Source of the DNA: an uncultured delta proteobacterium
GTDB taxonomy: Bacteria; Desulfobacterota; RBG-13-43-22
Reading direction: 5' to 3'
DNA length: 64,000 nucleotides
Assembly: GCA_963746605.1 (NCBI GenBank)
Contig: CAVVCH010000054.1
Coordinates: 21,366 to 85,365 of the forward strand
Position 1 is the stretch's first letter. Each line of letters starts with the position of its first letter. The position numbers and the translations under genes were made by a program. The notes beneath the pieces were generated by a model. That model searched no databases and was not told the origin of the DNA. It was given only the letters and a program-made list of their open reading frames with translations. Of this stretch, positions 11,597 to 41,657 are shown in pieces.

Positions 11597-13472
11597 ATGA
11601 AAGAGAATTATCTAATTCAAAACCTCGATGACATCGCAGCGCTGGAAGAGGTTCCCCTCCTGGAGCGCATCAAGGAAAGAAATACCTATGAGCTGCTGGA
11701 GAAAGGGGCCGCCATCAATCCTCAGGCCAAGGCCTTGACCTTCCTGCGGAGTGGAGAGGCCTACCTGGATCCGGTTCAATACACCTATCAAGAGCTCATG
11801 GGCAAGATCCGTCAAACAGCCAATCTGTTTCACGACCTGGGAATCGGACCCCGGGATGTGGTCACGTATCTCTTACCCAACCTTCCCCAGACCCACTTTG
11901 TTCTTTGGGGGGGTGAGATCGCCGGCATTTCCAATCCTATCAATCCCATGCTCGAGGCGAATACTATCCGGGACATCTGTCAGGCGGCCGGGACCAAGGT
12001 CCTGGTCGCTTTGGGAGAGACCCCCGGTTCGGATGTCTGGAGCAAAGTTGAGGCCATCCGCAAAGAGATCCCTTCCCTAAAATATGTAGTCCGGGTCCTA
12101 GGCCCCGGTGATGAGGCCGAAGGGATTATCGGTTACGAAGAACGGATGGCCGCCTATCCGGAAGAGAGGTTGACTTTCCAACGGGTCTTCGATCCCGAAG
12201 ATATCGCCTCTCTTTACCATACCGGTGGAACAACCGGTCGGCCCAAATTGGCCCGGCGCAGTCATTTTAACGAAACCGTCCTGGCCTGGGATTTAAGGAT
12301 CAGTATTGGCTTGCAGCCTGGTGAAGCGGTCATGTGCGGGCTGCCCCTCTTTCATTGCAACGGGACTTGTGTGACCGGCTTGTCGCCTTTTTCCATTGGA
12401 GGAGAGGTGGTCCTCCTTTCCCCGGCCGGCTACCGCGATCCGGCCGTCATCAAAAACTTTTATAAGATCGTGGAGCGTTACCGCCCGGTCATGTTTTCTT
12501 GTGTGCCCACGGTCCTGTCCATGCTTCTGGATACGCCGGTGGGAGGTGCGGATATCTCGTCGCTCCGTTATTTGATCTGTGGGGCCGCCCCTTTGAGCGT
12601 GGAACTCTTCCGCCGCTTTGAACAGCACTCGGGGATGAAGATTCTGGAAGGATACGGTTTGACCGAATCAACTTGTGCTTCCGCCGTAAATCCCAAGGAT
12701 GGGGAGCGCAAGGTAGGCAGCATTGGATTGAAATTGCCTTATCAGCAGATCAAGATCGCTATTCTGGATGAGCAGGGTCAATATCTCCGGGATGCCCAGA
12801 CTGGGGAGATCGGGGCGGTCTGCATCAAGGGGCCCACCATCTTTAAAGGGTATGTGGAGGAAATCCACAACCGGGGCATCTGGATCGGGGACGGCTGGTT
12901 CAATACCGGCGATCTGGGCCGGCAGGATGAGGACGGTTACCTCTGGCTGACCGGGAGGAAGAAGGAATTGATTATTCGAGGGCGGTCATAATATCGATCC
13001 GGCCGCTATTGAGGAACCGCTTTATAAGATGGAAGGCATCAAGATGGCCGCCGCCGTGGGACGTCCGGACCCGCATGCCGGCGAGGTCCCGGTCGCCTAT
13101 GTAGAGGTCCATGAGGGAGCCGCGGTGAACCCCGACTCTATCATGGAATGGGCCCGACAGCATGTGGGGGAAAAGGCCGCCATTCCTAAGGAGGTCGTCA
13201 TCCTCGACCGAATTCCCCTGACCGCGATCGGTAAGATCTTCAAGCCGGCCTTACGTTGGGATGCCATCCGTAGGACCTACGAGCAGGAACTGAAGAACCT
13301 CGGCGACTTGGCCCAGACCCTGGAGGTTACCGTAGGGGAGGATAAGGTCCACGGAACCCAGGCGACCATCCGGGTCAAGCCGGCGCCTGAGACCGATCGC
13401 TCCACCCTGGTCAACCGAATTTCCGAACTGCTGGCCCGGTATACCGTTCATTACGAAGTGATTCTGGAATAG
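11597..13472 (+). CDS. AMP-dependent synthetase/ligase (acyl-CoA synthetase), one frameshift near 12975
   Basis: ORF 11597..12991 has the AMP-binding motifs (YHTGGTTGRPK, TGDLG); ORF 13029..13472 is the C-terminal domain; the junction sits in a G-run. Confidence 0.75.
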
Positions 13473-13707: not shown

Positions 13708-15394
13708 CTACTCCGCCGCGGGAGGGAAGTAGAGAACAAAGCTGGCGCCCGAGCCGACAGTGCTTTCCACCTGGATCCACCCCTTGTGATCCTCCAGGAC
13801 TTTCTTGGCCATGGAAAGACCCAGTCCGATCCTTTTATCGGAGACCCTGGTCGTGAAAAAGGGTTCAAAAATCCGGTTCAGATCTTCTTCCTTAATCCCT
13901 TCGCCGGTGTCGCTTACCTTGACCGTCGCATAGGCCGACCCGTTGACCGTCGCTGTACCCGTGGCCACAGATAGCCGGCCTCCGTGCGGCATAGCGTCGA
14001 TGGCATTGAAAATAAGATTCTCGACCGCCACCAGGAACAACTCCCTTTCCCCCTCGATGGGCGGCACGTCTCCCAAGGACCGCTCTATGGATATGGAGCG
14101 CTCTTTACACAGCTCCTCGAAAATCCCCAGGGCTTCCCGGACAATGTCTTTCAGGTCGCACCTCTCCGGGCGGGCGGCTTGGCCCCAGGATAAAGAAAGG
14201 ACGTTTCGCAATATGATTTCCAGGCGGCCGACCTCGGCCAGAATAAATTTCGTATACTCCTTCTCTTTAGACCCTTCGGGAATCTTTTTGTCGAGTCTCC
14301 TGACGAATCCGCCGACGGCGGTCAGGGGGTTTCTGATTTTGTCGGCCACACTGGCGGTTATTCTGCCCGAGGGCCGCTCTTTTCTCCGCCTCGGCCAATT
14401 CCTCCTTAAGCCGGCTTTTCTCCATTTCGGCTTGCTGACGCATCATCACGGCGGCCAGGGTATCGGCCACGGCCGCCAGGAACCTCTCTTCCTCCAAGGT
14501 TTTTTCGTGGCTTTCTTCGATGGAGATGATGATCAGTCCCAGCGTCTGTCCGGCTGAGGCAATGGGCAGGCAATAATAGCCGTGCGGAAATTGAACGGGC
14601 CGTTGGATTCCCTGTTTTCCGTCCAAACATTCCGTACGGGCCGTCGTACAGGTTGAGATGTCTTTCCCGCACAGGCATTGGCCGAAGGAGATCCTGGCGC
14701 AGGGAGGGGGCATTTCGGGAAGGGTGCGCCAGGCTTTTAAAACCAGGACTTCCGGTTCGTTTTCGACTGTATAGATGCTTCCCTGGCCTTGGGAGGAAAG
14801 GCCGGGGATCATCAAAATCAGGTCCAGTACTCTGTTCAACTGCTCTTCCAGGGAAATCGGCTCCAAGGAAATCTTGAGCACGGAGCTGATGGCCGTCTGG
14901 ATCCGGTAATTCCGCTCAATCTGCAATTCCGCCTGCTTGCGTTCCGTGACGTCTCTAATCGAGGCAATGACCAGCAATTCCCCGTTCGTCTCGATCGGAC
15001 TCAGACTGATGTCAGCCGGGAATTCGGTCCCGTCTTTTCTGAGTCCGTAGATATTAAGGGCGGCTCCCATGTTTCGAACACGGGGATGCGAAAAGTAGTC
15101 GGCCACATTCTTTCTATGGTTGAGGCCATATCTTTCCGGAATCAGGAGGTGAAGGTCCTTACCAATCAAATCTTCATCGGAGTATCCGAATAATTTCTCC
15201 GCCTGGGCATTGGCGAGAACAATCCGGGCCTCTCGATTGACGAAGAACATGGCGTCCGGGGTCGATTCCACGAGTTTATCGTATTTGCCCTGGATGGCCT
15301 GCTTTTCCCAACCGCACCTATCGAGTAACTGAAGTTGCCGGCGCATTTTTTCCAGTTCCTGCGATAGTTGCTCTCTGGTCATGCGTTTTTTCAT
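13708..15394 (-). CDS. PAS/GAF-containing sensor histidine kinase, one frameshift near 14350
   Basis: ORF 14267..15514 carries the PAS and GAF regions, ORF 13708..14349 the HisKA/HATPase_c part (IRNPLTAVGGF, DTGEGI); likely start MKKRMT at 15394. Confidence 0.75.
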
Positions 15395-15734
15395 AATATC
15401 TCCATTGGATTTGCGGATGCGAATTATTATAATGATATTTTTCCATTTATCTCCAAAAAAAGAATGAGGGCCCGACGTGGTCTTTCGCCTCGATCCCGAT
15501 CGGGCGCGAAGCAATTAAGGCTATGATTTCCAAGCAAAAGGGGCAGACCCAGCCGGAAGGCTTTTGCGGGATGGCCCCCGTCAATCTGGACCTCCTGGCA
15601 GACCGTCCTCACTGGTTTAGGTGAATCGGGGATGGCCGCGGGCGGCCTCCTGGGAACCGGTCTTTTATGAATGGATCCAACCAACCGAGGCCCTCGTTTC
15701 ACCCCATACGGTTTTCCCGTTTGAACAACGGGTT

Positions 15735-15950
15735 ACCCCATTACTCCCTCCCTCCTTACTCCTTACGGTATTCAGCCCTGCGATCCGCCCTCGCGACTGA
15801 CAGCTTGCGTTCTCTTTCGGCTCACTGCCTTCCGCTTTCAATCCTCTTTCTCCCAATCTATGATTTCTCTCTTCTGTCCTCTCTCTTCTCCCTTCTTCCT
15901 CTCCCCTCTTCCATCTTGTCTTTTTCCCTTGACTTCCTACAAAACCTTTT
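15735..15950 (+). repeat. Polypyrimidine (C/T-rich) low-complexity tract
   Basis: About 200 bp that is almost entirely C and T on the plus strand, e.g. ctctttctcccaatctatgatttctctcttctgtcctctctcttctcccttcttcctctcccctcttccatcttg. Confidence 0.6.
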
Positions 15951-16052
15951 TATATACGTATACTTACACCATAATGTAGTGGACGCCAATAAAGCGATCA
16001 CCGGCGGTCGCCATTAGAGGTGAGCGTCGCCGGATAGGTTGAGATTTCCGAG

Positions 16053-16337
16053 ATGAGGGCCTTTAAACGCGTTCCGAAGTGAAGAGCTGCTACCCGAGGA
16101 ATTATTGGGTTTATTCAGAACAATGGCTGGTTTTACTCATTGGCCCGCCGGAAGCTGAGACAACTTGAGATTGCCGGTAGGATAGATGATCTGAGAGTGC
16201 CGCCCGGAAATCGTCTTGAAACACTCAAAGGTGATCGTTACGGCCAGTACAGTATTCGTATCAACGATCAATGGCGTGTCTGTTTTAATTGGAATGAAGA
16301 AGTTGCAGAAAATGTTGAAATCGTGGATTACCATTAA
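16053..16337 (+). pseudogene. higB: HigB-family toxin, degraded (N-terminal part out of frame)
   Basis: C-terminal 65 codons read RKLRQLEIAGRIDDLRVPPGNRLETLKGDRYGQYSIRINDQWRVCFNWNEEVAENVEIVDYH, a typical HigB C-terminus; the only ATG (16053) gives MRAFKRVPK then a stop. Confidence 0.55.
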
Positions 16338-16349
16338 GGAGACCCAATC

Positions 16350-16602
16350 ATGAATAAACTCAAACCCATTACTCCCGGTGAAATCCTGCTGGAAGAATTT
16401 CTTAAACCGATGGGGTGAACCAGTTCGCTTAGCCAAAGACATAGGAGTCCCACCCCAGCGCATCAGCGATATTGTTGCCGGTAAGCGAGCCATACGGCGG
16501 ACACCGATGGCACTACGGCTGTCCAGATCCTCTGGTCTGACGAACGGCTACTTGGCTGCGCGCTCAGGCTGCCCATGCATCACTGAAATCGCGGAGCGTT
16601 GA
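16350..16602 (+). pseudogene. higA: HigA-family HTH antitoxin, frameshifted
   Basis: MNKLKPITPGEILLEEFLKPMG then a frame change; second frame ...LAKDIGVPPQRISDIVAGKRAI... is the Xre-type HTH. Confidence 0.55.
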
Positions 16603-16609
16603 ACTGATC

Positions 16610-17500
16610 GGTTCTGGCAAAAATCAGCCCCTCCCCACACCACCTAGCATGCGGGTCCGCACTAGGCGGTTCCCAGAGGCTACCGAGCCGTAGCCGGGTA
16701 ATGGATGTTTACCCACTGATCTTTGACAGACAGCAAACCTTGATCCTTGAGTCACGCCAAGGCGTGATCATGCCTGTCTGGGTGGCCAGCGTGCGTGAGA
16801 GTCGCCAGGGGCCTTTCCGGCTCATCCCGACCGAGATAGCGGTCCGCAGGTGTTCATTGGGATTGGGCTTATCGGCAACGCGCCGGCCACTCGCTCCCCC
16901 GGACGGGTTTATGGCGATGGTCGAGCTTACCGGGCCTTTTCCCTGCTCTGGGTTCGGTCCTTCGTTCGTTGATGGCGAACTACTATGACCTCGGCTGACT
17001 CCTGCCCGGTCAATCGACATGTTTCCAGGCCGGATGCTGTCCAATGTTAACTGGACCGCCTGCCGAACAGGTCTCCCCGGACTCAGTTCAGTACTCCCTC
17101 AGGGGTTAAGACGTGATCTGTCGTTACACAACCGCGGCATTTACCGCGTCTCCTAAACCCGGGGCTTTGTCATGTCGTGCTGACTTACCCGGAGACTTGG
17201 CCTTGTATGCCATTTCTGTACCCCGGATCAGGTCCGGGGCAGGCTTGGCTCATAGCTTTGCGCTCCAGCTTCCTTCGGACGATCCCTCGCGAGCATCGCC
17301 CTTGCTTTCGGCTAGTATTTATGTTCCTGTCTTACGACAGTACGGGTTTACATCAGGGGACTTTCACCCCATAAGATCACGCCCATGCCGGGCGTACACT
17401 AGAATCGTTCGCACCGGATCGGCACCGCTACCCCGGGACAAAACGCGGACATGAAGCTGGTCTCGTGACAAAATGGTCGAGGCTACCGATGGAAAGGATT
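16610..17500. other. ORF-free GC-rich segment of about 0.9 kb; candidate structured RNA or decayed element
   Basis: Six-frame ORFs here give only Pro/Arg/Ser/Gly-rich non-protein-like translations; many local hairpins, e.g. CCCCGGA-ucagg-UCCGGGG at 17221-17239. Confidence 0.2.
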
Positions 17501-18363
17501 ATGGAGGAATACGGACAAGAGGAACCGTGGATGTATAATTCAAAACAAAGTCCTTCGTAATGGTGCAACAAAGATCGATGAAGCAGTTGTATCCTGCTAA
17601 AGAACTTGCCTCCATTAGCTGTAGGTCGCAGGGAATGTTTTCCGGCATGCGGGACGTCATTATGTTTGATCGAAGCAGGTGTCTTGGCGCATATCTGTTT
17701 TTTGATATGCCAGGCGAGGCGAGCTACCTAACGGCAGGACATCTTGCGCAGGTCTTAGGAGGGAAGGCAAGTTTTAAGCGTGAATTGTCGCGCATTTGAT
17801 CAGAAATCCAATGCAAGTCAATCCTCTGGACCTCTATGGGGTCTTTCGTTTCTTTGCGATCCAAGAATTCTTGATGAACTGCTCTGGCATTTCCATAAGA
17901 AAGGAGGTTGGCCATTTCTTTCAGGCCCAGAGATTCGCCCTTTCGGCTCCGGTGGCCAGTTTCTGGATGTCCACGATTTCATGAACGCATGGGCAACGTT
18001 GGGAATCGGCGAACTCACTTTTGCCTTGGGCCAAACGATTGACTCAACTGCGGACATTCTTGCGGTCAATGCAATGCGTGCGGCGGGAATGAGCAACGTA
18101 CTGAATTTGGAGGCGGGCGAATTTTCAGAAGGCCTCTATCATTCTGAAATGGCAATACTTGTCATGCATATCGATCTGGGTACGGATTAGAAAACTCAGG
18201 CCAAGGTGAAGCCGCGAGAGGCTATAAAAGCAAGAAAATGCCCGAACAACCGCGTCAACACCGACCGGCGCCACACGGGTTTCCCAGAGCTCGTTCGCCG
18301 AGCAAAAATGGGGTCAAATCTTTATTATTGACATCTTCTGTTCTAATTTGATACAGGGATTCC

Positions 18364-18906
18364 ATGAGCCGACCTTTGCGCATCCGATATCCCGGGGCGG
18401 TATATCACGTCACCTGTCGGGGCAATGACCGTCAGGACATCTTCCGGGACGATACGGACCGGACGGAGTTCCTGGAAATCCTGGCGGGGTCCCAAACCAT
18501 CTATAACGTGAAGATGTACGCCGCGGTTTTGATGGGGAACCATTTTCATTTGCTGCTGGAGACCCCTCTGGGCAATCTGAACGAATTCATGCGGCGGTTT
18601 AACATCACGTATACCGGCTATTTCAACCGCCGGCACCGGCGGGTGGGCCACTTGTACCAGGGCCGATATAAAAGCATTCTGGTAGAAAAAGAGAGCTATC
18701 TGTCCGAGCTGTCCCGTTATATCCACTTGAACCCGGTCCGGACCCGAGAGCTGGAATCGGAGAACGCCAAAGTCCGGTGGCACTATCTGCTGGACTATCC
18801 CTGGAGCACCTTCCCGGGATATTTGAATGCCAAAGACCGATGGCCGGGGGTGGATTACGGGTTGGTCTTAGGTGAATTCGGCGTGGACAACCCGAATAAA
18901 AGATAA
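18364..18906 (+). CDS. Y1 HuH transposase-like protein (IS200-like fold), truncated paralog
   Basis: 180 aa nearly identical to the first 170 aa of ORF 20843..21823 (HVTCRGN, HFHLLL, YQGRYKS); diverges after ...EFG and ends early. Confidence 0.7.
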   Translation: MSRPLRIRYPGAVYHVTCRGNDRQDIFRDDTDRTEFLEILAGSQTIYNVKMYAAVLMGNHFHLLLETPLGNLNEFMRRFNITYTGYFNRRHRRVGHLYQGRYKSILVEKESYLSELSRYIHLNPVRTRELESENAKVRWHYLLDYPWSTFPGYLNAKDRWPGVDYGLVLGEFGVDNPNKR

Positions 18907-19262
18907 AGTAATGGAACACGTGTTCTCCGGACGTCTTAGTCACGCGGGCATCGATACAGCGAAGCGAAAATCGTCGGCGGTCAATGTTCATGGTACCGGG
19001 TCGGGGAATACCCAACAGGATGCCGGGATACACCATCTAATGCAACGTGCTTCGATCGATGATGTCATTTCGACATGAAGCCTTGACTTGGGGTATGGGA
19101 TCCCAACGGGGCAGGCCCGGTTTGGCTAACAGCATAGAAGCCGATCGAGTGGGCGGAGTTAGATCTGCCAGACGGGGGACCGGGTTTGCCGCCTTGGCTG
19201 GATATTGGCGTTAGCCCGGAGACAAGATTGACAAAAGGCACACATTGTCGTAATCATATTAT

Positions 19263-19541
19263 ATGAATGTCTTTCGATGGGATAATGAAAAAAACGAGAT
19301 GCTCAGGAAGAACAGAGGTGTTTGTTTTGAACAGGTTGTCATACTGATGGAAAGAGGAGATGTTCTCGATACAATAGAACATCCAAACCAGGATAGATAT
19401 CCAGGACAAAAGATCGCCATAGTCAGGATTGATGACTACGCATATCTCGTTCCTTATGTTGAAAAAAGTGAGGAGCTGTTTCTCAAAACCATTATCCCCA
19501 GTAGAAAGGCTACAAACAAGTATGTGAGGACAAAGAAATGA
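19263..19541 (+). CDS. brnT: BrnT-family toxin
   Basis: 92 aa; FRWDNEKNEMLRKNRGVCFEQVV fits the BrnT N-terminal pattern; TTGACA box at 19228-19233. Confidence 0.7.
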   Translation: MNVFRWDNEKNEMLRKNRGVCFEQVVILMERGDVLDTIEHPNQDRYPGQKIAIVRIDDYAYLVPYVEKSEELFLKTIIPSRKATNKYVRTKK

Positions 19542-19831
19542 AAAAGATAGTTTTGGATGCCGAGGAAAAGGATATCCTTGAATCATATGAGCGTGGAGAA
19601 TGGGTGCCGGTCAAGAATCCGAAGAAGGAAATAGCGAAGCTTCGGAGGTACGCAAGGAATACGCTGCAAAAAGACAAGAGAATCAACATTCGAATGTCGT
19701 CGAAGGACTTAGACCAGGTGCAGGTCATCGCCGCACAAGAAGGCATCCCTTATCAGACTCTGGTATCCAGTATCATTCATAAGTATGTTTCCGGATATCT
19801 TATCGAGAAAGAAAGAAGGCTTAACGATTAG
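19538..19831 (+). CDS. brnA: BrnA-family antitoxin
   Basis: 97 aa; KRINIRMSSKDLDQVQVIAAQEGIPYQTLVSSIIHKYV is the BrnA C-terminal motif; 4-bp ATGA overlap with brnT. Confidence 0.7.
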   Translation: MKKIVLDAEEKDILESYERGEWVPVKNPKKEIAKLRRYARNTLQKDKRINIRMSSKDLDQVQVIAAQEGIPYQTLVSSIIHKYVSGYLIEKERRLND

Positions 19832-19895
19832 CTGCACCGGACGAGGCAAAACTAGCACGCCGGTGAGCACCATGTTAGCCTCAGGAGGATAGAGG

Positions 19896-20354
19896 ATGGA
19901 AGAGAAGAATAAAATAACCGAGGCGCTTCGTTTGATATTCGAAGGAATAGACCGCCTGAAGAGGGCATTCCCGAAGAAGGAGTTCACGATTGATGGACGT
20001 CTCGTCGGGGACATAGGCGAGATTATCGCTGCACTTGAATATGATGTTGAACTCTTTGATGTCCTGTGCGAAGGGTATCACGGCAAGACGTCGGATGGTC
20101 GTCTGGTACAAGTTAGGGCGACATTTAAAGACTCTCTTACGTTCCCCTCTGTCCCTGACTATTATTTAGGTCTTAAGCTACACCGAGACGGGACCCACGA
20201 AGAAATCTACAACGGTCCCGGAAAACTGATTTACGAGAAATACAAGCATAGAAGTGGCATAGGAAAGAAATTGCTATCGTTCCCTAATATTGATCTACGA
20301 GAGCTATCTGCCAGGGTACTAAGAAATGATCGTATTCCAAAGCGCAAGGGCTAA
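19896..20354 (+). CDS. Hypothetical protein (152 aa) in the cargo segment
   Basis: Uninterrupted ORF with no family recognised by eye; appears AT-richer than flanking chromosome. Confidence 0.5.
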   Translation: MEEKNKITEALRLIFEGIDRLKRAFPKKEFTIDGRLVGDIGEIIAALEYDVELFDVLCEGYHGKTSDGRLVQVRATFKDSLTFPSVPDYYLGLKLHRDGTHEEIYNGPGKLIYEKYKHRSGIGKKLLSFPNIDLRELSARVLRNDRIPKRKG

Positions 20355-20367
20355 CAAGTGCGTCCAC

Positions 20368-20449
20368 CCGATCGCCGAAAAAACCGGCTCCGGGTGATGT
20401 CATCGTTGATCGTCAAGGTGGAACCGGTCGCGGTGGACGCCTCCTTCGT
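20368..20449. repeat. Cassette-associated repeat, copy A (part 1 and part 2)
   Basis: Part 1 CGATCGCCGAAAAAACCGGCTCCGGGTGATG recurs at 23429-23459; part 2 GTTGATCGTCAAGGTGGAACCGGTCGCGGTGGACGCCTCCTTCGTA recurs at 25938-25982. Confidence 0.5.
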
Positions 20450-20594
20450 AAATGGGTAGATGAGGAGTCATGACGTTCTTTGGATGCTTGTGCAGGTCAG
20501 AGACCGGATCAGCTCCAGCGAAACCTTTCCCTGCTGTCCTTTCCGGTGCCCCTCATGGGATTAGTCAGGGACAAATACCGGGCGAGGTTGTTGC

Positions 20595-20810
20595 ATGAAT
20601 TCTACCGTATCTACTTTTCCAGAACGCGTGGCCTGGATCCTGTTGGGATTGGGCCTCCTCTTCGCCCTCCTTTTCCACCTGGTGCCAGGACTACTGGCGG
20701 GCCTTCTGGTTTACAGTCTCATACATCGCCTGGACCTGCAACTTCACCGCAGGCGCTGGACCAGCAAGAAAAATGCGCGCCTGGCGGCCCTGGGGTCATC
20801 TTATTGTTGA
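20595..20810 (+). pseudogene. Possible N-terminal fragment of a membrane protein (AI-2E/PerM-like) cut at the edge of the duplicated Y1 segment
   Basis: VAWILLGLGLLFALLFHLVPGLLAGLLVYSLIHRLDLQLHRRRW resembles AI-2E transporter N-termini; ORF ends where the duplicated sequence begins (20806). Confidence 0.25.
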
Positions 20811-20842
20811 CATCTTCTGTTCCAATTTGATACAGGGATTCC

Positions 20843-21823
20843 ATGAGCCGACCTTTGCGCATCCGATATCCCGGGGCGGTATATCACGTCACCTGTCGGG
20901 GCAATGACCGTCAGGACATCTTCCGGGACAATACGGACCGGACGGAGTTCCTGGAAATCCTGGCGGGGTCCCAAACCATCTATAACGTGAAGATGTATGC
21001 CGGGGTTTTGATGGGGAACCATTTTCATTTGCTGCTGGAGACCCCTCTGGGCAATCTGAACGAATTCATGCGGCGGTTTAACATCACTTATACCGGCTAT
21101 TTCAACCGCCGGCACCGGCGGGTGGGCCACTTGTACCAAGGCCGATATAAAAGCATTCTGGTAGAAAAAGAGAGCTATCTGTCCGAGCTGTCCCGTTATA
21201 TCCACTTGAACCCGGTCCGGACCCGAGAGCTGGAATCGGAGGACGCCAAAGTCCGGTGGCACTATCTGCTGGACTATCCCTGGAGCACCCTACCGGGATA
21301 TTTGAATGTCAAAGACCGATGGCCGGGAGTGGATTACGGGTTGGTTTTAGGTGAATTCGGCGGGGACAACCCGAAGGGACGGCGTGGTTATGGAAAACGG
21401 ATCCGAGAGGACCTCGTCGGGGGCATCGAACTGAAAGGAAAAATAGTCGGCGGGTGTGTTCTGGGCCGGGCGGGTTATATCCAATGGGTCCGGGAAAAAC
21501 ACATTAAGGAACTGCCGGTCGGGGATTACACCGGATATAAAGCCTTGAAACGCTATCGATCCAAGGAGCAGGTCCTGGATTTGCTGGCAGTAGAAACCGG
21601 CCTGAGTTTGGAAGAGGTTAAATCTTCCAAGGGGGACCGGCGCCGGTTGGCCATGGAATTGCTGTACCGGGTGGGCGGATTGACCGGAGACGAGATCGGA
21701 AGCCTTTTCGGGATAGGCGCCAGCGCAGTCAGTCAGGAAAGGAAAAGGCTGGTGTCCCGAATGGCGGAAGATGAGGCCGTGAAAAAGCTGTTTGAGGAAC
21801 TGTTTTCGAAATGTTCGGTATAG
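20843..21823 (+). CDS. Y1 HuH transposase-like protein with C-terminal DnaA-like HTH domain, full-length paralog
   Basis: 326 aa; HuH motif HFHLLL, tyrosine region YQGRYKS, C-terminal ...GLTGDEIGSLFGIGASAVSQERKRL. Confidence 0.75.
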   Translation: MSRPLRIRYPGAVYHVTCRGNDRQDIFRDNTDRTEFLEILAGSQTIYNVKMYAGVLMGNHFHLLLETPLGNLNEFMRRFNITYTGYFNRRHRRVGHLYQGRYKSILVEKESYLSELSRYIHLNPVRTRELESEDAKVRWHYLLDYPWSTLPGYLNVKDRWPGVDYGLVLGEFGGDNPKGRRGYGKRIREDLVGGIELKGKIVGGCVLGRAGYIQWVREKHIKELPVGDYTGYKALKRYRSKEQVLDLLAVETGLSLEEVKSSKGDRRRLAMELLYRVGGLTGDEIGSLFGIGASAVSQERKRLVSRMAEDEAVKKLFEELFSKCSV

Positions 21824-21998
21824 ATCCCGGGCCAAGTCGTGAGGCCTGGCCCTGGCATGATTTGAAGGGTTATGGAAAAGAAGGAATATAATAAATAAAG
21901 AATTGACCCCTTTTCTCCTTTTTACGCTTTTCTGACCGAAATTTGGGTGAAAAGGATTTTGGCAGAGGAACCATAAACAGTTATTCTTACAAAGGAGG

Positions 21999-22880
21999 AT
22001 GTCAGTGAACGTTAAAGATTTGTATCAAAACAAAAAACCGGCTGTTTCCATGGAATTTTCTCCCCCCAGAGACCAAAAAGCGGCTGAATCCTTTTCGGAC
22101 ACTGTGGATAGCCTATCACGGCTGAAGCCGGATTACCTGTCCGTTACATTCGGCGCCGGTGGTTCCACCCGTGAAGGGTCCTACCAGACGGTCAAGCAGT
22201 TGATAGCCGACAAACACTTGCCTACGGTGGCTTACATAGCGGGATACGGTCTGGGGCCTGATCAGATTGTCAGCGTTCTGGACGATTATAAAGCGCTGGG
22301 CGTCCAAACCATTTATGTAATCAGAGGCGATCAACCCAAAGAAAAGGATTTTACCGCCCATCCGGATAGTTTTGCCCATGCTTCGGATATAATCGCTTTT
22401 ATAAAAAAGCGCTATGATTTTATACTTGGATGTGCCGGATACCCCGAAGGGCATGTCGAAGCTGAAAGTCTGGAAAAAGACATCGAATATCTGAAGCAAA
22501 AAGTGGACAACGGCGTGAACTATGTTGTGACTCAGTATTTCTACGACAACGACTATTTTTTGCGCTTCGTTGACAAGTGCCACACGATTGGCATCAATGT
22601 GCCGATTATTCCGGGCATTATGCCGGTGTATACAGTAAAAATGACCCAAATGTTGTCCAAGATATGTGGCTCCAAAATTGTACCTCAATTGCAGCGTCGT
22701 TTGGATGGCGTGGATCAGGCCGACAGTCAGGCGGTACTCCAGGTAGGCATCGATTTTGCCACCGAGCAATGCCAAGGTTTGCTCAAAGAGGACGTGGCCG
22801 GACTTCATTTTTACACGATGAACCGAAGCTATTCGACCACAGAAATCATCAATCGATTGAAACAAGACCATCTGTTGTAG
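21999..22880 (+). CDS. metF: 5,10-methylenetetrahydrofolate reductase
   Basis: 293 aa with MetF-like layout (SVTFGAGGSTR, YVVTQYFYD); appears AT-richer than neighbouring genes; GTG at 22005 is an alternative start. Confidence 0.85.
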   Translation: MSVNVKDLYQNKKPAVSMEFSPPRDQKAAESFSDTVDSLSRLKPDYLSVTFGAGGSTREGSYQTVKQLIADKHLPTVAYIAGYGLGPDQIVSVLDDYKALGVQTIYVIRGDQPKEKDFTAHPDSFAHASDIIAFIKKRYDFILGCAGYPEGHVEAESLEKDIEYLKQKVDNGVNYVVTQYFYDNDYFLRFVDKCHTIGINVPIIPGIMPVYTVKMTQMLSKICGSKIVPQLQRRLDGVDQADSQAVLQVGIDFATEQCQGLLKEDVAGLHFYTMNRSYSTTEIINRLKQDHLL

Positions 22881-23015
22881 ACAAATATATCAGTCTAAGC
22901 AAAGGAGGACGGAGCCGAGCGTTTCCGGTTCTGGTCAAGAGCACAAAAAGGGGCAATCTGAACGGCGCGAGAGGGAAAAGTTGACTGCCTTATTTTTTGT
23001 GGATACAATAATTCA

Positions 23016-23342
23016 ATGAGAATCGGCTTTGATCCCGCCAAGGGAAAACGATTACCATTGACTGACGAAGACGGCGAGGTCCCCGAACTCACCGCCGATG
23101 ACTTCAAGCACTTCAAACCCGCTTCCGAGGTGCTGCCCCCAGGGCTGTTGGCGGTGCTCCCCAGGCGCGGCCGGCCTACGGTGAAATCTCCAAAGAAGGC
23201 GGTGAACATTCGTCCGGCACCTGACATACTCTCTGCTTTCAAGTCCACGGGTAAAGGCTATACGCATCGGCTATACTCACTCCACTTTGGGTTCAGGTTA
23301 TACGCTAGAGTCGGAACTTATGAAGGGCCTGAAGGGTGTTAG
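23016..23342 (+). CDS. BrnA-like (DUF4415-type) small protein, C-terminus possibly frameshifted
   Basis: ...PELTADDFKHFKPASEVLPP...KKAVNIRPAPDILSAFKSTGKGY fits the BrnA/DUF4415 pattern; no adjacent BrnT. Confidence 0.4.
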   Translation: MRIGFDPAKGKRLPLTDEDGEVPELTADDFKHFKPASEVLPPGLLAVLPRRGRPTVKSPKKAVNIRPAPDILSAFKSTGKGYTHRLYSLHFGFRLYARVGTYEGPEGC

Positions 23343-23428
23343 CGTAGGATGTCACGAGATTTGCAATAGTTGCCAAGATCTGCCTCGTTAGACTTGGAAA
23401 GAAATCCATAGGCCGATGCCATGCAGCG

Positions 23429-23459
23429 GATCGCCAATAAAGCCGGCTCCCGCTGATGG
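23429..23459. repeat. Cassette-associated repeat, copy B (part 1 only)
   Basis: GATCGCCAATAAAGCCGGCTCCCGCTGATGG, about 80% identical to 20368-20398. Confidence 0.45.
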
Positions 23460-23537
23460 CCGTGATTCACCAGGGAGGTCACTTTGAGATACGCGGTCTA
23501 TGGTCCCCAGCTTGTCCGGGCTTTAGGAGGGACCAAG

Positions 23538-25682
23538 ATGGCCAAGGAAACAGTGACCAGCATCTGCGGCATATGCCCCGGCGGATGCGGCGTGAATGTG
23601 GTACTGGTCGACGGGAAGGTTGAGAAGATTTCGCCCATCAAGGGCCATCCTATCGGTGTCGTCTGTATCCGAGGGCTTCATTCAAAGGAAATCATCTATT
23701 CCAGAGACCGGTTGAAGTACCCTTTGCTCCGGGTGGGGGAAAAGGGTGAAGGACACTTCGAACGGATCACCTGGGATGAGGCCATGGACCGCATTGTCCA
23801 TGGGTTTCAGAAAACCAAGGATGAATACGGCGCACAAGCCGTCATGGCCTACTTTGGCCGCGGCAGTTTCGAATCAAACGTTGTGGATGTCTTCGGAGCC
23901 CCGGATCCCACCAGTAAAGGCGTCACCGGTTTTTTGTACCCTTTCGGCTCACCCAACGGCACGGGCGTTTCTTCGGTTTGTTCTGTGTCGTATAACCTCC
24001 TCGCCGCAATACCGACCCTCGGAACTTCCATGCATGCCCTGTACCCGGATTTTGAGAATACGGATATGGTTATCATCTGGGGAACAAATCCGCCCACGGA
24101 TTCGCCTCCGAACAAGGTGAAGAAGATCCTGGCGGCGAAAAAGCGGGGCGCCAGGGTGGTCGTGATCGATCAAATGCGATCCGACATGGCAAAACTTGCG
24201 AACCAATGGATCGGCATCCGCTCCGGCACGGATGGGGCATTGGCTTTGAGCCTCATGCATGTCATTGTGAACGAAGGACTCTTTGACGAGGCGTTTGTGC
24301 GGGACTGGACTACGGGTTTTGAGGACCTTCGAGACTACGTACAACAATTCCCCCCGAAAAAGGCTGAAAAGATTACCCGCGTACCCAGGGAGACCATCTT
24401 CGAGCTGGCTCGATCCATCGCCGGCGCCAAAGGCGCCTCGCTGCACATGTACACGGGACTGGAGTACAGCAACAGCGGCGTTCAGAGCATCCGAGCCGCG
24501 TTGTGCCTTTGGGCCATAACAGGCAACATGGATGTGCCGGGTGGGCTGATGTTCAGACCCCCTAGTCCGGTAAAGTTCCCGCGTATCAAACTGGACCCGC
24601 CCCAAGGGGTGAAACCCATCGGCGCAGACAAGTATCCCTATTTTTGCGACCTGCTCAAATCGGCGCAGTTTTTAGAAGCTCCCCGGGCGATTTTGCGGGG
24701 TGATCCCTATCCAGTCAAGACCCTATTGATTTTCGGGGCCTCGCTCTTGACCAGCTTGCCTGATCCCGAGATGTGGAAGAAATGCTTCAAACAGCTAGAT
24801 TTCATGGTGGTCTACGATAGATTTATGACGGCTGACGCCGCGTACGCGGACATCGTACTCCCGGCCACCACGAATTACGAGAATCTGGGGTATCAGAGAT
24901 ACCCCGGAGGATACTGTCAGTTGCGGCAGAGGGTGATCGATCCGCTGGGAGAGGCGAAATCCGGCTACACGTTCTTGGCGGCACTGGCCAAGGGGCTGGG
25001 TTATGGGGATCTCTTCCCGACAACGGATGAAGATCGCCTCAAATTTGCCTTCGAGACCGGCCCCGTATCCTTGGAAGAATTGAAGGCGCATCCGGAAGGC
25101 GTCAAATTTGATGCCGGCAGACAGGAATACCGGAAATACGCCAAGGGTCTTCTGCGCAAAGGGGGTGAACCGGGATTTGATACGCCTTCGGGGAAGGTAG
25201 AGCTCGCATCGAGCCTGTTGGAGAAGTACGGCTATGATGGCCTGCCTGTATACCTGGAGCCCACTGAAGGTCCCCTGGGCAGCCCAGAACTTTATAGGAA
25301 ATACCCCTTGGTGTTCAACAGCGGGGCTAGGCTTCAGTCGGCGTTTCGATCACAGCATTTGAACATCCCGGGGCTGTTGAAGCTACAACCAAAACCGCAA
25401 GTTCTTATTCACCCCCTGGATGCGAAGGCGAGGGAAATTGAAAACGGGGACCAGGTCTGGGTGGAGTCCCCCAGGGGTCGAGTGAGCTTTTGGGCCAAGG
25501 TGACGGACGACGTGATGACGGGCCAAGTGGAGGTGAATGTGGGCGGAGGGAGCCCCATCCATGCGGAGGGGTGGCGGGAAGCGAACGCAAACTACCTGAC
25601 CGACTATGAAAATCGCGATCCGATTTCGGGTTTCCCGGTATATAAGGCGTTGCTATGCGAGGTGAAAAAACGGGAGGACTGA
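23538..25682 (+). CDS. Molybdopterin-dependent oxidoreductase (DMSO reductase / formate dehydrogenase superfamily)
   Basis: N-terminal Cys cluster SICGICPGGCGV, MopB-like length (about 715 aa), strong RBS AGGAGG before ATG 23538. Confidence 0.85.
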   Translation: MAKETVTSICGICPGGCGVNVVLVDGKVEKISPIKGHPIGVVCIRGLHSKEIIYSRDRLKYPLLRVGEKGEGHFERITWDEAMDRIVHGFQKTKDEYGAQAVMAYFGRGSFESNVVDVFGAPDPTSKGVTGFLYPFGSPNGTGVSSVCSVSYNLLAAIPTLGTSMHALYPDFENTDMVIIWGTNPPTDSPPNKVKKILAAKKRGARVVVIDQMRSDMAKLANQWIGIRSGTDGALALSLMHVIVNEGLFDEAFVRDWTTGFEDLRDYVQQFPPKKAEKITRVPRETIFELARSIAGAKGASLHMYTGLEYSNSGVQSIRAALCLWAITGNMDVPGGLMFRPPSPVKFPRIKLDPPQGVKPIGADKYPYFCDLLKSAQFLEAPRAILRGDPYPVKTLLIFGASLLTSLPDPEMWKKCFKQLDFMVVYDRFMTADAAYADIVLPATTNYENLGYQRYPGGYCQLRQRVIDPLGEAKSGYTFLAALAKGLGYGDLFPTTDEDRLKFAFETGPVSLEELKAHPEGVKFDAGRQEYRKYAKGLLRKGGEPGFDTPSGKVELASSLLEKYGYDGLPVYLEPTEGPLGSPELYRKYPLVFNSGARLQSAFRSQHLNIPGLLKLQPKPQVLIHPLDAKAREIENGDQVWVESPRGRVSFWAKVTDDVMTGQVEVNVGGGSPIHAEGWREANANYLTDYENRDPISGFPVYKALLCEVKKRED

Positions 25683-25690
25683 GGTACATT

Positions 25691-25895
25691 ATGAAGAACT
25701 CAAAGGCGCTTGGGAACAACGTCTCGGTTGAGGTTACGCATATCTCCAAAACAGGAGTCTGGCTGCTTGCCCGAGAAAGAACCGTATGTCGACCATTTCT
25801 ATTGGCCTGATCTTGACGTAGACCTGACTTCCGAGATCATTGACTATCCCGAAAGATTTCCCTTGAAAGTAAAAGAGTGCTCAATAAGACGATGA
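25691..25895 (+). pseudogene. DUF2442-like small protein, frameshifted
   Basis: Frame 1 MKNSKALGNNVSVEVTHISKTGVWLLAR, frame 2 ...PYVDHFYWPDLDVDLTSEIIDYPERF; the motif W-P-x-LD resembles DUF2442. Confidence 0.3.
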
Positions 25896-25937
25896 ACCCG
25901 ATCATGTCCCTGGCGGGCCACTCCGGGTTAGCTCGGT

Positions 25938-25982
25938 GTTGATCGTCAAGGTGGAACCGGTCGCGTGGACGCATCCTTCGTA
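25938..25982. repeat. Cassette-associated repeat, copy C (part 2 only)
   Basis: GTTGATCGTCAAGGTGGAACCGGTCGCGTGGACGCATCCTTCGTA, near-identical to 20404-20449. Confidence 0.5.
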
Positions 25983-30956: not shown

Positions 30957-31043
30957 ATGAACGTCGAACATCGAACTTCCAACATCGAATGTTGAATGAA
31001 TGGAGTCTTGTTTTTCATTCGACATTGGGCGTTCGATGTTCAT
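30957..31043. repeat. Family D palindromic element (GAACATCGAAC ... GTTCGATGTTC)
   Basis: ATGAACGTCGAACATCGAACTTCCAACATCGAATGTT...CGTTCGATGTTCAT; second copy at 41518-41657. Confidence 0.65.
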
Positions 31044-41517: not shown

Positions 41518-41657
41518 ATGAACATCGAACATCGAACTTCCAACATCGAATGTTTAATGAAAAAGATGAAGAAGCAGAAATAGGGATCCCCTGTTCGGCA
41601 ATAGAGGTTTGTTTTTCATTCGAGGTTGGACGTTCGATGTTCGATGTTCGACGTTCA
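41518..41657. repeat. Family D palindromic element
   Basis: ATGAACATCGAACATCGAACTTCCAACATCGAATGTT ... GACGTTCGATGTTCGATGTTCGACGTTCAT. Confidence 0.65.

What the first reader, a model, noticed from the sequence alone, without database searches (positions are those of the whole stretch)
18329..21823. Two paralogous Y1-HuH transposase-like genes bracket a cargo segment carrying brnTA and a hypothetical gene
The segment 18329-18895 (promoter-like TTGACATCTTCTGTTC...ATG plus the first 170 codons) is duplicated almost exactly at 20806-21372. The first copy is truncated at codon 180; the second is full length (326 aa) with a DnaA-like HTH tail. Between them lie a BrnT/BrnA pair, a 152-aa hypothetical and a probable AI-2E transporter fragment cut at the duplication boundary. 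The intervening genes look AT-richer than the surrounding chromosome, suggesting a composite mobile unit or a recombination scar built on this little-studied Y1-HTH family.
Basis: partly seen in the sequence, partly recalled or inferred. Interest (0 to 1): 0.55.

Follow-up and report, generated by a model that had tools for sequence, protein, structure and literature searches.

The report
TIRtron and relic in cassette array
The two "transposase-like" genes are one intact and one decayed copy of a known but never-tested mobile unit (a TIRYT gene with inverted-repeat ends), and the genes between them are ordinary integron gene cassettes, not cargo of a composite transposon.

Summary
The duplication is real: 18309-18896 matches 20791-21375 at 97.1% over 588 nt.

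Each copy begins a "TIRtron". This is a gene of about 1.1 kb for a RAYT-like Y1-HUH nuclease with a DnaA-domain-IV-like C-terminal DNA-binding domain. It is bounded by terminal inverted repeats with the core GGGGTCAAATCTT. The family is known only from bioinformatic work (TIRYT, Di Nocera 2013; subclass 2.1, Quentin 2018).

- **Copy B** (20796-21914) is intact and under purifying selection.
- **Copy A** is a chimeric relic. Its first ~0.59 kb is 97% identical to B. Homology then continues at only ~60%, with stops and indels. It has no right end.
- **The "cargo"** is a set of integron-type gene cassettes. brnTA (19211-19874) and DUF6998 (19875-20405) each end in an attC site. The cassette boundaries (G|TT) recur in many unrelated metagenome contexts. 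A covariance model finds four attC sites, all on the + strand.
- **The "AI-2E fragment"** is the first 67 codons of an unclassified membrane-protein gene, cut at B's left end.

Three related genomes carry one TIRYT copy in this same hypervariable island. A composite transposon is not supported. Partial gene conversion or recombination between the copies best explains the pattern. The result is ordinary: a new member of a known kind.

The parts
18304..18326 (+). Left terminal inverted repeat of copy A (AAAAATGGGGTCAAATCTTTATT). It matches the family consensus.
   Evidence: It is the reverse complement of the right end at 21888-21914. The same core lies 53-62 nt upstream of the ATG in every related locus.
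18304..18896 (+). Head of relic copy A: left repeat, leader and codons 1-177. It is 97.3% identical to copy B.
   Evidence: Ten of the 13 polarised coding differences are A-derived, including changes at two family-invariant residues, L150F and G174V.
18364..18906 (+). ORF of copy A (180 aa): a Y1-HUH domain only, ending in a stop created inside the diverged tail.
   Evidence: Pfam Y1_Tnp E 2.5e-14. NCBIfam REP_Tyr_transpos 73.6 bits, below the cutoff of 80.
18897..19210 (+). Decayed tail of relic copy A. It shows collinear patches of homology to B's 3' half at about 60% identity, with stops and indels. It has no right repeat and stops at the brnTA cassette boundary.
   Evidence: It is closer to the B clade (0.60) than to L006 (0.51) or L002 (0.47), so it derives from that clade.
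19211..19874 (+). brnTA integron gene cassette: brnT-like 19263-19541, brnA-like 19538-19831, attC 19819-19880.
   Evidence: Relatives were found in 333 metagenome loci, and 80 were examined. In the closest ones homology starts at G|TTAAGCC and ends at GTT|, with unrelated flanks. attC covariation is shown. The covariance model scores 60.8 bits. GC is 42.8%.
19875..20405 (+). DUF6998 gene cassette: ORF 19896-20354, attC 20349-20411. R'' GGCTAAC overlaps the stop codon; R' is GTTGATC.
   Evidence: Pfam DUF6998, 135 bits. The attC model scores 47.7 bits, E 2e-9. The cassette start TTAGCC is complementary to its own R''.
20406..20795 (+). Start of a third cassette. It holds the first 67 codons (20595-20795) of an unclassified membrane-protein gene, cut by copy B's left end.
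   Evidence: P0123 (122 aa) is 98.5% identical over residues 1-67 and then continues differently. The rest of that gene is absent from the window. No AI-2E or other family hit was found.
20791..20812 (+). Damaged left repeat of copy B (TGGGGTCA---TCTTATTG). It has a 3-nt deletion and has lost the outer AAAA.
   Evidence: All these changes are B-derived relative to five other copies.
20843..21823 (+). Intact TIRYT gene (326 aa). It has a Y1-HUH nuclease domain (H60-F-H62, Y119), a disordered linker (~198-237) and a DnaA-domain-IV-like HTH domain (~240-326).
   Evidence: Pfam Y1_Tnp. More than 6200 homologues, most of them 326 or 329 aa long. Invariant residues are listed. The AF2 model has pLDDT 76.9. 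Foldseek finds 4er8 (TM 0.70) and 3pvp (TM 0.76). dN/dS is about 0.2 against L005 and L007.
21888..21914 (-). Right terminal inverted repeat of copy B. The reverse complement reads AAAAGGGGTCAATTCTTTATTTATTAT.
   Evidence: Homology to L001 (95.8% over 1116 nt, with different flanks) ends at 21916.
21923..22953 (+). metF (MTHFR) module, which starts 8 nt after copy B's right repeat. It is probably another cassette.
   Evidence: It is 98.9% identical to L007, with dS 0.016 against 0.29-0.44 for three flanking genes (g27601, g29155, g33145). In L007 it is preceded by a weak attC hit at 12908-12964 (17.5 bits, E 0.08).
23412..23470 (+). attC site downstream of a degraded second brnTA-like pair (22972-23342).
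   Evidence: The covariance model scores 27.3 bits, E 2e-4. An intact version of the pair is present in L015.
25879..25944 (+). attC site after the 732-aa molybdopterin oxidoreductase gene. Its 3' half plus the next ~45 nt repeat 20388-20450.
   Evidence: The covariance model scores 24.3 bits, E 1e-3. The repeat is shown.
16957..17296 (-). ORF-less group II intron fragment, in the opposite orientation to the cassettes. It lies next to an attC-like remnant at about 17418-17450.
   Evidence: Rfam group-II-D1D4-3 (93 bits) and D1D4-1 (63 bits). A homologous fragment in L007 abuts the attC-like hit upstream of metF.

Best explanation
**What is there.** The locus holds one intact 'TIRtron' (copy B, 20796-21914) and one chimeric relic of the same element (copy A, 18304 to about 19210). 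Both sit inside a hypervariable array of integron-type gene cassettes with no integrase gene in view (CALIN-like).

**What a TIRtron is.** It is a discrete unit of about 1.1 kb. It comprises a left inverted repeat, a gene for a RAYT-like Y1-HUH nuclease fused to a DnaA-domain-IV-like DNA-binding domain, and a right inverted repeat.

**Inferred, not shown.**
- The C-terminal domain binds the conserved duplex repeat (core GGGGTCAAATCTT).
- The HUH/Tyr domain nicks and rejoins one DNA strand at the ends.
- Together these move or copy the unit.

**The genes between the copies.** brnTA, DUF6998 and the start of a membrane-protein gene are separate cassettes placed by integron-type recombination at G|TT. 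The Y1 genes did not carry them there.

**Copy B.** It lies where a relative has the attC upstream of metF. A deletion next to it removed the rest of the membrane-protein cassette and nibbled B's left repeat.

**Copy A.** It is an older, inactivated copy. Its first ~590 nt were recently overwritten by gene conversion or recombination with a B-like copy. That explains the step from 97% to about 60% identity at 18896/18897. Since then A has drifted without constraint.
For: **Unit and ends**
- B matches L001 at 95.8% over 1116 nt in a different context. The match ends at the inverted repeats.
- Two copies in one MAG (L008 and L009) are 98.6% identical over 1076 nt. Their flanks are unrelated and the match ends at the repeats.
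- The repeat core is conserved even in a 39%-identical WOR-3 homologue.

**Protein**
- Pfam Y1_Tnp.
- HUH and Tyr residues are invariant in 44 homologues.
- Best PDB folds are 4er8 (a RAYT) and 3pvp (the DnaA DNA-binding domain).
- dN/dS is about 0.2.

**Family description.** Quentin 2018 (PMC6006769) and Di Nocera 2013 (PMC3733652) describe TIRYT genes with GGGGWSAS inverted repeats and Bac_DnaA_C/HTH tails.

**Relic**
- Head is 97.3% identical to B; tail is 60.6% identical with 50 gap columns.
- Ten A-derived changes against two B-derived changes in the coding head. Two of the A-derived changes hit invariant residues.

**Cassettes**
- G|TT boundaries recur in 14 or more independent contexts.
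- The attC helices are 82% paired, against at most 39% in slid controls. Nine of 11 inner pairs show compensatory changes.
- The covariance model finds four attC sites, all on the + strand between 19.8 and 25.9 kb. Nothing else in the 64 kb scores below E=1.
- Extra attC sites occur beside brnTA in L014 and L024.

**Synteny.** L005, L007 and L015/L016 each carry a single TIRYT in the same island, with different cassette content.
Against: - Gene conversion is inferred only from the identity step. No pre-conversion state of copy A was found.
- The tail has diverged more than I estimate neutral decay would give since the split from L007 (that estimate is about 20% per site). The relic is therefore older than that split, or the tail came from elsewhere.
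- My two candidate attC sites on either side of copy A (18241-18299 and 19124-19216) were not detected by the model. The array is therefore demonstrated only from 19.2 kb rightwards.
- No integron integrase was found, and the rest of the genome is unseen.
- TIRYT activity has never been tested experimentally, to my knowledge; two literature searches found nothing.
- The outer two repeats (A-left and B-right) are the best preserved. That is also what a composite unit would show.
Confidence: 0.68

Rival explanations
1. Composite transposon. The two Y1-HTH copies act as flanking insertion sequences, and the 3.6-kb block moves as one unit using A's left repeat and B's right repeat.
For: - The outer repeats are the two best-preserved ends, and the inner ends are degenerate.
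- The two copies are in direct orientation.
Against: - The block was not seen elsewhere. Its parts occur separately: the brnTA cassette in 333 other loci, DUF6998 in L004, and the membrane-protein gene intact in P0123.
- Relatives have a single copy in the same island.
- The internal genes have their own attC sites.
- No target-site duplication is evident at the outer ends.
- From general knowledge of IS200/IS605, single-strand Y1 transposases are not known to form composite elements.
Confidence: 0.06
2. Local segmental (tandem) duplication of a unit of about 2.48 kb, followed by replacement or decay of part of one copy. No gene conversion is involved.
For: Direct repeats 2479 nt apart with high identity.
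Against: - A tandem duplication would give 2.48 kb of identity. Only 588 nt are shared.
- A's tail is homologous to B's tail but is about 40% diverged, right next to a head that is 2.7% diverged.
- The sequence between the copies consists of separately bounded cassettes.
Confidence: 0.1
3. Copy A is a functional truncated paralogue: a Y1-only nuclease or regulator of 180 aa, kept by selection. The head is conserved for that reason while the untranslated tail decays.
For: - The complete Y1 domain, the HUH and Tyr residues, the leader and a consensus left repeat are all retained.
Against: - If the tail had decayed by about 40% in place, synonymous sites of the head should be heavily diverged too. 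The head is 97% identical to B, non-coding leader included.
- A-derived changes are about five times as frequent as B-derived ones, are mostly non-synonymous, and hit two invariant residues.
- The exact 180-aa product is absent from the protein collection.
Confidence: 0.08
4. Assembly artefact: a single gene was assembled twice.
For: - The source is probably a metagenome-assembled genome.
- A neighbouring kinase gene is split by a frameshift.
- An independent short-read contig (L003) breaks 16 nt from B's right repeat.
Against: - The copies differ at 16 substitutions plus a 3-nt indel.
- They have different flanks and entirely different 3' parts.
- They are separated by 1.9 kb of unique, well-formed cassettes.
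Confidence: 0.02

Closest known systems
TIRYT / TIRtron (Di Nocera et al. 2013, PMC3733652), equivalent to subclass 2.1 of the TnpA_REP-like Y1 HUH proteins (Quentin et al. 2018, PMC6006769)
   Same: - A long RAYT-like Y1 protein with a C-terminal HTH of the Bac_DnaA_C/HTH_23 type.
- Flanked by terminal inverted repeats that carry a GGGGWSAS-type motif, not by REP hairpins.
- Few repeat copies per genome.
   Different: - The repeat core here is GGGGTCAA, so the last position departs from the published consensus.
- This copy sits in an integron cassette array next to a chimeric relic. The published descriptions do not report that setting.
RAYT / TnpA_REP with REP or REPIN sequences (E. coli, PDB 4er8)
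   Same: - Best structural match for the N-terminal domain (TM 0.70).
- HUH and Tyr motifs.
- Best NCBIfam hit is REP_Tyr_transpos.
   Different: - The score is below that family's cutoff (69 vs 80 bits).
- The protein is twice as long, with an extra DNA-binding domain.
- The window has no REP hairpin family, only three copies of the inverted repeat.
IS200/IS605 insertion sequences (IS608, ISDra2 TnpA)
   Same: Same Y1-HUH fold and the same Pfam family (Y1_Tnp).
   Different: - From general knowledge, those elements have subterminal hairpins and no inverted-repeat ends, and their TnpA is about 130-150 aa without an HTH domain.
- Here the ends are duplex-type inverted repeats and the protein is 326 aa.
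Integron gene cassettes in an array without integrase (CALIN)
   Same: - The 'cargo' genes each end in an attC site with R''/R' and L''/L' pairing.
- They are bounded at G|TT.
- They are promoter-poor, co-oriented and AT-richer.
- They recur in other arrays.
   Different: - No integrase or attI was seen in the 64 kb.
- Some attC sites are degraded or replaced.
- The array is interrupted by a TIRtron and by a group II intron fragment.
Composite transposons such as Tn10 or Tn5 (IS - cargo - IS)
   Same: Two related transposase-like genes in direct orientation on either side of other genes.
   Different: - One flanking copy is a relic without its outer-facing partner end.
- The internal genes are independently mobile cassettes.
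- There is no evidence that the block moves.

Membership tests
TIRYT / TIRtron | Y1-HUH catalytic domain with an HUH motif and a catalytic tyrosine | tested here: met
   - Pfam Y1_Tnp E 1e-13.
- H60, H62 and Y119 are invariant in 44 homologues.
- Fold matches 4er8, 2a6o and 2xqc.
TIRYT / TIRtron | Gene flanked by terminal inverted repeats carrying a GGGGWSAS-type motif | tested here: met
   - AAAA(T)GGGGTCAAATCTTTATT at 18304-18326, and its reverse complement at 21888-21914.
- The same ends are present in L001, L002, L006 and L008-L010.
- The motif here is GGGGTCAA, with one departure from the consensus at the last position.
TIRYT / TIRtron | C-terminal helix-turn-helix extension (Bac_DnaA_C, HTH_23 or HTH_28) | tested here: met
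   - Foldseek 3pvp (DnaA DNA-binding domain): TM 0.76, rmsd 2.2 A.
- HTH_23 E 0.003 and Sigma70_r4 E 0.011.
- The Pfam Bac_DnaA_C model itself gave no hit.
TIRYT / TIRtron | Nuclease or transposase activity on its own ends | not testable with these tools
   No experimental study was found. Mobility is inferred from near-identical units in different contexts.
RAYT (REP-associated tyrosine transposase) | Meets the curated family score and is associated with a genomic REP or REPIN population | tested here: not met
   NCBIfam REP_Tyr_transpos scores 69.4 bits against a cutoff of 80. No REP family flanks the gene, and the window holds only three copies of the inverted repeat.
IS200/IS605 insertion sequence | Subterminal hairpins without inverted-repeat ends; short TnpA of about 130-150 aa | tested here: not met
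   The ends are 21-27-nt inverted repeats. The protein is 326 aa with an extra domain.
Composite transposon | Two complete flanking elements, and the whole block found or moving as a unit | tested here: not met
   - Copy A lacks a right end and copy B has a damaged left end.
- The block was not found elsewhere.
- Relatives have one copy.
- The internal genes are separate cassettes.
Integron gene cassette (for brnTA and DUF6998) | attC site with R''(RYYYAAC)/R'(GTTRRRY) and L''/L' pairing at the 3' end | tested here: met
   - Covariation in 19 attC sites: 82% of cells paired, and 0 of 500 shuffles reached the observed score.
- The covariance model scores 60.8 and 47.7 bits at 19819-19880 and 20349-20411.
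Integron gene cassette (for brnTA and DUF6998) | The same cassette in different arrays, bounded exactly at G|TT | tested here: met
   - brnTA: 14 close loci diverge exactly at G|TTAAGCC on the left and at GTT| on the right.
- Further attC sites lie nearby in L014 and L024.
- For DUF6998, only the internal consistency (start TTAGCC against R'' GGCTAAC) could be tested.
Complete integron | intI integrase and attI next to the array | tested here: not met
   - No Phage_integrase domain in 10 flanking ORFs.
- No hit to a tyrosine-recombinase probe in any ORF of 80 aa or more.
- Only 64 kb were visible.
BrnT/BrnA toxin-antitoxin | Toxin and antitoxin match the family models and form an overlapping two-gene operon | tested here: inconclusive
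   - BrnT_toxin 26 bits, below the gathering score of 34.5.
- CopG_antitoxin 28.4 bits, against a gathering score of 28.
- NCBIfam BrnA hit is weak.
- The ORFs overlap by 4 nt.
- The PDB search gave only a weak hit to a 94-aa 'toxin'.
AI-2E transporter (for ORF 20595-20810) | Match to the AI-2E_transport family model | tested here: not met
   No Pfam or NCBIfam hit for the 71-aa ORF, for the 122-aa P0123, for the 118-aa P0122, or for a 338-aa protein stitched from a frameshifted relative in L011.

The most novel reading that the evidence does not exclude
TIRYT elements may home to folded attC sites or cassette boundaries of integron arrays. Group IIC-attC introns and IS1111-attC elements do this (my recollection, not checked here). 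That would link a single-strand HUH nuclease to the single-stranded attC hairpin.

**For**
- Copy B's right end lies 8 nt from the metF cassette boundary. L007 has an attC-like site at that position.
- Copy A's left end lies 4 nt from a GTT-type sequence.
- Partial extra copies sit near full copies in four of the loci examined.

**Against**
- No attC sites were detected around TIRtrons in the seven other TIRtron loci searched with filters off (L001, L002, L005, L006, L008-L010).
Probability: 0.08. Interest if true: 0.6.

Novelty: new member of a known kind. Interest (0 to 1): 0.3.

Why it matters
- **Annotation.** This corrects a tempting misreading. Two transposase-like genes around small genes need not form a composite transposon. 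Here the 'cargo' is an integron cassette array, and one 'transposase' is a pseudogene.
- **The family.** The locus gives well-delimited examples of a large family (more than 6200 relatives) that has never been tested experimentally. It defines exact ends, a 13-nt repeat core conserved across phyla, and a DnaA-domain-IV-like domain that probably reads that core. These features make binding and cleavage experiments straightforward to design.
- **The island.** One chromosomal island combines four kinds of mobile DNA: cassettes, a TIRtron, a group II intron and TA modules.
- **Metabolic genes.** metF and a molybdopterin oxidoreductase gene appear to travel as cassettes.

Tried and rejected
1. **Shared right junction.** I first took 'TTGAC|AAAAGG', shared by copy A and L007, to be a truncated right repeat and proof of orthology. 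The 80 brnT loci showed it is the brnTA cassette's own promoter region, so I withdrew that argument.
2. **Candidate attC sites around copy A.** The candidates at 18241-18299 and 19124-19216 came from a hairpin and core-motif scan. The covariance model did not confirm them. A stricter regex scan proved non-specific: shuffled sequence gave 2-12 hits.
3. **L004 boundary.** An apparent cassette boundary at 20558 is a Nextera adapter at the contig end.
4. **Solo repeat after metF.** The 'AAAAAGGGG' at 22944-22953 is at chance level.
5. **AI-2E assignment.** I tested it four ways without support.
6. **Defence-system models.** PADLOC gave nothing for the five proteins.
7. **Exact-protein look-ups.** Look-ups of copy A and BrnT found nothing. 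The metF and DUF6998 look-ups found only short contigs.
8. **PDB sequence-profile search.** It did not find the Y1 domain. Only the fold search did.
9. **Foreign origin of A's tail.** I tested whether the tail belongs to a foreign TIRYT lineage. It is closest to the B clade, and blastx against 120 homologues gave nothing better.

Full report
**1. Observation**

The repeat is real. Self-BLAST gives 18309-18896 vs 20791-21375 at 97.1% over 588 nt. The repeat finder and a base-by-base alignment agree. Nothing else in the 64 kb matches.

Copy A is an ORF of 180 aa (18364-18906). Copy B is an ORF of 326 aa (20843-21823). Both match Pfam Y1_Tnp. Their best NCBIfam hit is REP_Tyr_transpos, below its cutoff.

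Copy A is not a clean truncation. After 18896 the two sequences remain collinear and homologous, but at about 60% identity with stops, frameshifts and 50 gap columns.

**2. What the gene is**

The 326-aa protein has more than 6200 relatives. Most are 326 or 329 aa long. They come from Thermodesulfobacteriota, Nitrospirota and other uncultured lineages, and are annotated 'RayT' or 'putative transposase'.

In 44 homologues the HUH histidines (H60, H62) and the tyrosine of the YIHxNP motif (Y119) are invariant.

An AlphaFold model (pLDDT 76.9) has three parts:
- An N-terminal domain whose best solved match is the E. coli REP-associated tyrosine transposase 4er8 (TM 0.70). IS608 and ISDra2 TnpA follow.
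- A disordered linker.
- A C-terminal domain that superposes on the DnaA DNA-binding domain 3pvp (TM 0.76, rmsd 2.2 A).

The Pfam Bac_DnaA_C model itself does not hit. Only HTH_23 and Sigma70_r4 hit, weakly.

**3. The unit and its ends**

A 96%-identical gene on an unrelated ENA contig (L001) shares 1116 nt with copy B (20801-21916 at 95.8%) and nothing beyond. The shared block is bounded by inverted repeats. On the left is AAAA(T)GGGGTCAAATCTTTATT (18304-18326 for copy A). On the right is its reverse complement (21888-21914 after copy B).

The same core, GGGGTCAAATCTT, lies 53-62 nt upstream of the ATG and 7-90 nt downstream of the stop in six of the eight related loci examined (L001, L002, L006, L008-L010). 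That includes a WOR-3 homologue of only 39% identity. In the other two, L005 and L007, the left repeat is intact and the right repeat is degenerate.

Two copies in one MAG (L008, L009) are 98.6% identical over 1076 nt, with unrelated flanks. The match ends at the repeats. This is therefore a discrete unit that has moved.

The literature already describes it. Di Nocera et al. 2013 named such genes TIRYT and the units TIRtrons, with a GGGGWSAS motif in the repeats. Quentin et al. 2018 place them in subclass 2.1, whose members carry Bac_DnaA_C, HTH_23 or HTH_28 tails. I found no experimental work.

**4. The two copies compared**

With five other copies as outgroups:
- The head of A (left repeat to 18896) is 97.3% identical to B and 94-95% identical to L001, L005 and L007.
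- The tail of A is about 60% identical to that clade, and less to more distant copies (0.51 and 0.47). The tail is therefore a decayed member of the same clade.

In the coding head, 10 differences are A-derived. Six nucleotide changes are non-synonymous, and they include L150F and G174V at family-invariant positions. Only 2 differences are B-derived.

B has dN/dS of about 0.2 against L005 and L007. So B is constrained and A is not.

A step from 2.7% to about 40% divergence at a single point cannot arise by decay in place. I infer recombination or gene conversion that recently renewed A's head from a B-like copy.

The ends also differ:
- A keeps a consensus left repeat.
- B's left repeat has a 3-nt deletion and has lost its outer AAAA.
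- Only B has a right repeat.

**5. The 'cargo'**

A scan for BrnT relatives returned 333 metagenome loci, of which 80 were fetched. In all 80, homology to the window is confined to about 19206/19228-19825/19890.

In the 14 closest loci the sequences diverge exactly at G|TTAAGCC on the left and just after GTT on the right. That is the integron cassette recombination point.

Downstream of brnA, the loci carry varied hairpin elements. These start with GCTTAAC inside the end of brnA and end with GTTRRRY. On 19 of them:
- The R''/R' and L''/L' helices are 82% paired, against at most 39% in slid controls.
- There are 39 double-sided changes, and 0 of 500 shuffles reached the observed score.
- Nine of 11 inner pairs show compensatory changes.

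A covariance model built from them was run over the whole window without filters. It finds four sites, all on the + strand:

| Site | Bits | Note |
|---|---|---|
| 19819-19880 | 60.8 | training member |
| 20349-20411 | 47.7 | E 2e-9 |
| 23412-23470 | 27.3 | |
| 25879-25944 | 24.3 | |

Nothing else scores below E=1. The model also finds further sites beside brnTA in L014 and L024. It finds none around TIRtrons elsewhere.

Hence:
- brnTA is one cassette (19211-19874).
- DUF6998 is another (19875-20405). Its start TTAGCC is complementary to its R'' GGCTAAC.
- A third cassette starts at 20406.
- The 63-nt repeat seen at 20388-20450 and 25921-25982 is the 3' half of an attC plus a shared cassette start.

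No integrase was found in the window.

**6. The supposed AI-2E fragment**

The 71-aa ORF has no Pfam or NCBIfam hit. It matches residues 1-67 of a 122-aa hypothetical membrane protein (P0123) at 98.5%, and then diverges at nt 20795/20796, the edge of B's left repeat. The remainder is nowhere in the window.

A more distant relative is frameshifted in L011. When stitched to 338 aa it also has no family hit.

**7. Relatives at the same locus**

Two MAGs (L005, L007) and two JGI contigs (L015, L016) share the window's flanking genes. Each carries one TIRYT copy in this island, with different content around it.

| Source | Order of elements |
|---|---|
| L007 | R-M genes, TIRYT, brnTA, group II intron fragment, attC-like site, metF |
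| L005 | TIRYT, second brnTA-type pair |
| L015 | 5'-truncated TIRYT, intact second brnTA pair, brnTA cassette |
| Window | higBA, intron fragment, relic A, brnTA, DUF6998, membrane-gene stub, B, metF, degraded second brnTA pair, Mo-oxidoreductase |

B is the positional counterpart of the L005/L015 copy.

Synonymous divergence between these genomes is 0.29-0.44 for three flanking genes (g27601, g29155, g33145). It is 0.10-0.13 for the TIRYT gene and 0.016 for metF. metF has therefore been exchanged recently. It starts 8 nt after B's right repeat, at the position where L007 has a weak attC hit.

**8. Verdict**

The composite-transposon reading does not stand. The family is known from sequence analysis only, and this locus is a new, well-delimited member in an unusual setting.

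- **Shown:** the unit's ends, the protein's folds, the cassette nature of the intervening genes, and the chimeric state of copy A.
- **Inferred:** how the protein acts on its ends, gene conversion as the cause of the identity step, and the deletion next to B.

Noticed in passing
window 16628-17450 (Rfam hits 16957-17296, minus strand): An ORF-less group II intron fragment lies opposite in orientation to the cassettes, next to an attC-like remnant (about 17418-17450). A homologous fragment in L007 abuts the attC-like site upstream of metF. This resembles attC-targeting group IIC introns.
   Followed up: partly
window 21923-22953: The metF (MTHFR) module is 98.9% identical to L007, with dS 0.016 against 0.29-0.44 for three flanking genes (g27601, g29155, g33145). 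Its GC is 46.7%. It is absent from L005 and L015. A central-metabolism gene seems to have been exchanged recently as a cassette-like module.
   Followed up: partly
window 23471-25944: A 732-aa molybdopterin oxidoreductase gene (23484-25682) lies between two attC hits (23412-23470 and 25879-25944). It would be an unusually large cassette of about 2.5 kb. It is absent from L005, L007 and L015.
   Followed up: partly
window 22972-23342: This is a degraded second BrnT/BrnA-type pair. An internal deletion fuses the brnT start to brnA. The pair is intact in L015 (1529-2147).
   Followed up: partly
window 16140-16602: A HigB-like toxin (Pfam 64.7 bits) and an HTH_3 antitoxin pair lie at the left of the island.
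   Followed up: no
window 30970-31037 and 41524-41652: A palindromic repeat (ATCGAAC TTCCAACATCGAATGTT ... CATTCGA..GTTGGA.GTTCGAT) is present at two intergenic sites, with tandem ATCGAAC heptamers at the second. It looks like a REP or MITE. Any relation to the short RAYT-like gene at 59.4-59.9 kb was not tested.
   Followed up: partly
window 59445-59925: A third, distant and shorter RAYT/IS200-like Y1 gene appears split by a frameshift into ORFs 59445-59681 and 59623-59925. Pfam Y1_Tnp hits the second ORF at E 2e-6.
   Followed up: partly
window 13708-15514 (minus strand): The PAS/GAF sensor kinase gene is split into two overlapping ORFs. The L007 orthologue is a single 561-aa ORF. This is either a real frameshift or an assembly error.
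   Followed up: no
L001 5265-5304; L006 11327-11544; L002 17956-18225: Partial TIRtron copies lie 0.5-7 kb downstream of a full copy, in the same orientation. L001 has a solo right repeat, L006 a 219-nt 3' end, and L002 an internally deleted copy. Together with this window, 4 of about 9 loci show leftovers near a full copy.
   Followed up: partly
window 21826-21855: An inverted repeat (CCCGGGCCA ... TGGCCCTGG, 9 bp in L001) lies just after the TIRYT stop codon. It is conserved in the close clade but absent where the right repeat abuts the stop (L008, L009). Its role is unknown.
   Followed up: no
window 15600-16000: A pyrimidine-rich tract with no ORF (GC skew -0.35, AT skew -0.31) lies between the kinase gene and higBA. 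It is partly shared with L005.
   Followed up: no
L004 686-723: This public ENA contig ends in a Nextera adapter sequence (CTGTCTCTTATACACATCT...). Its apparent divergence from the window at that point is an artefact.
   Followed up: yes
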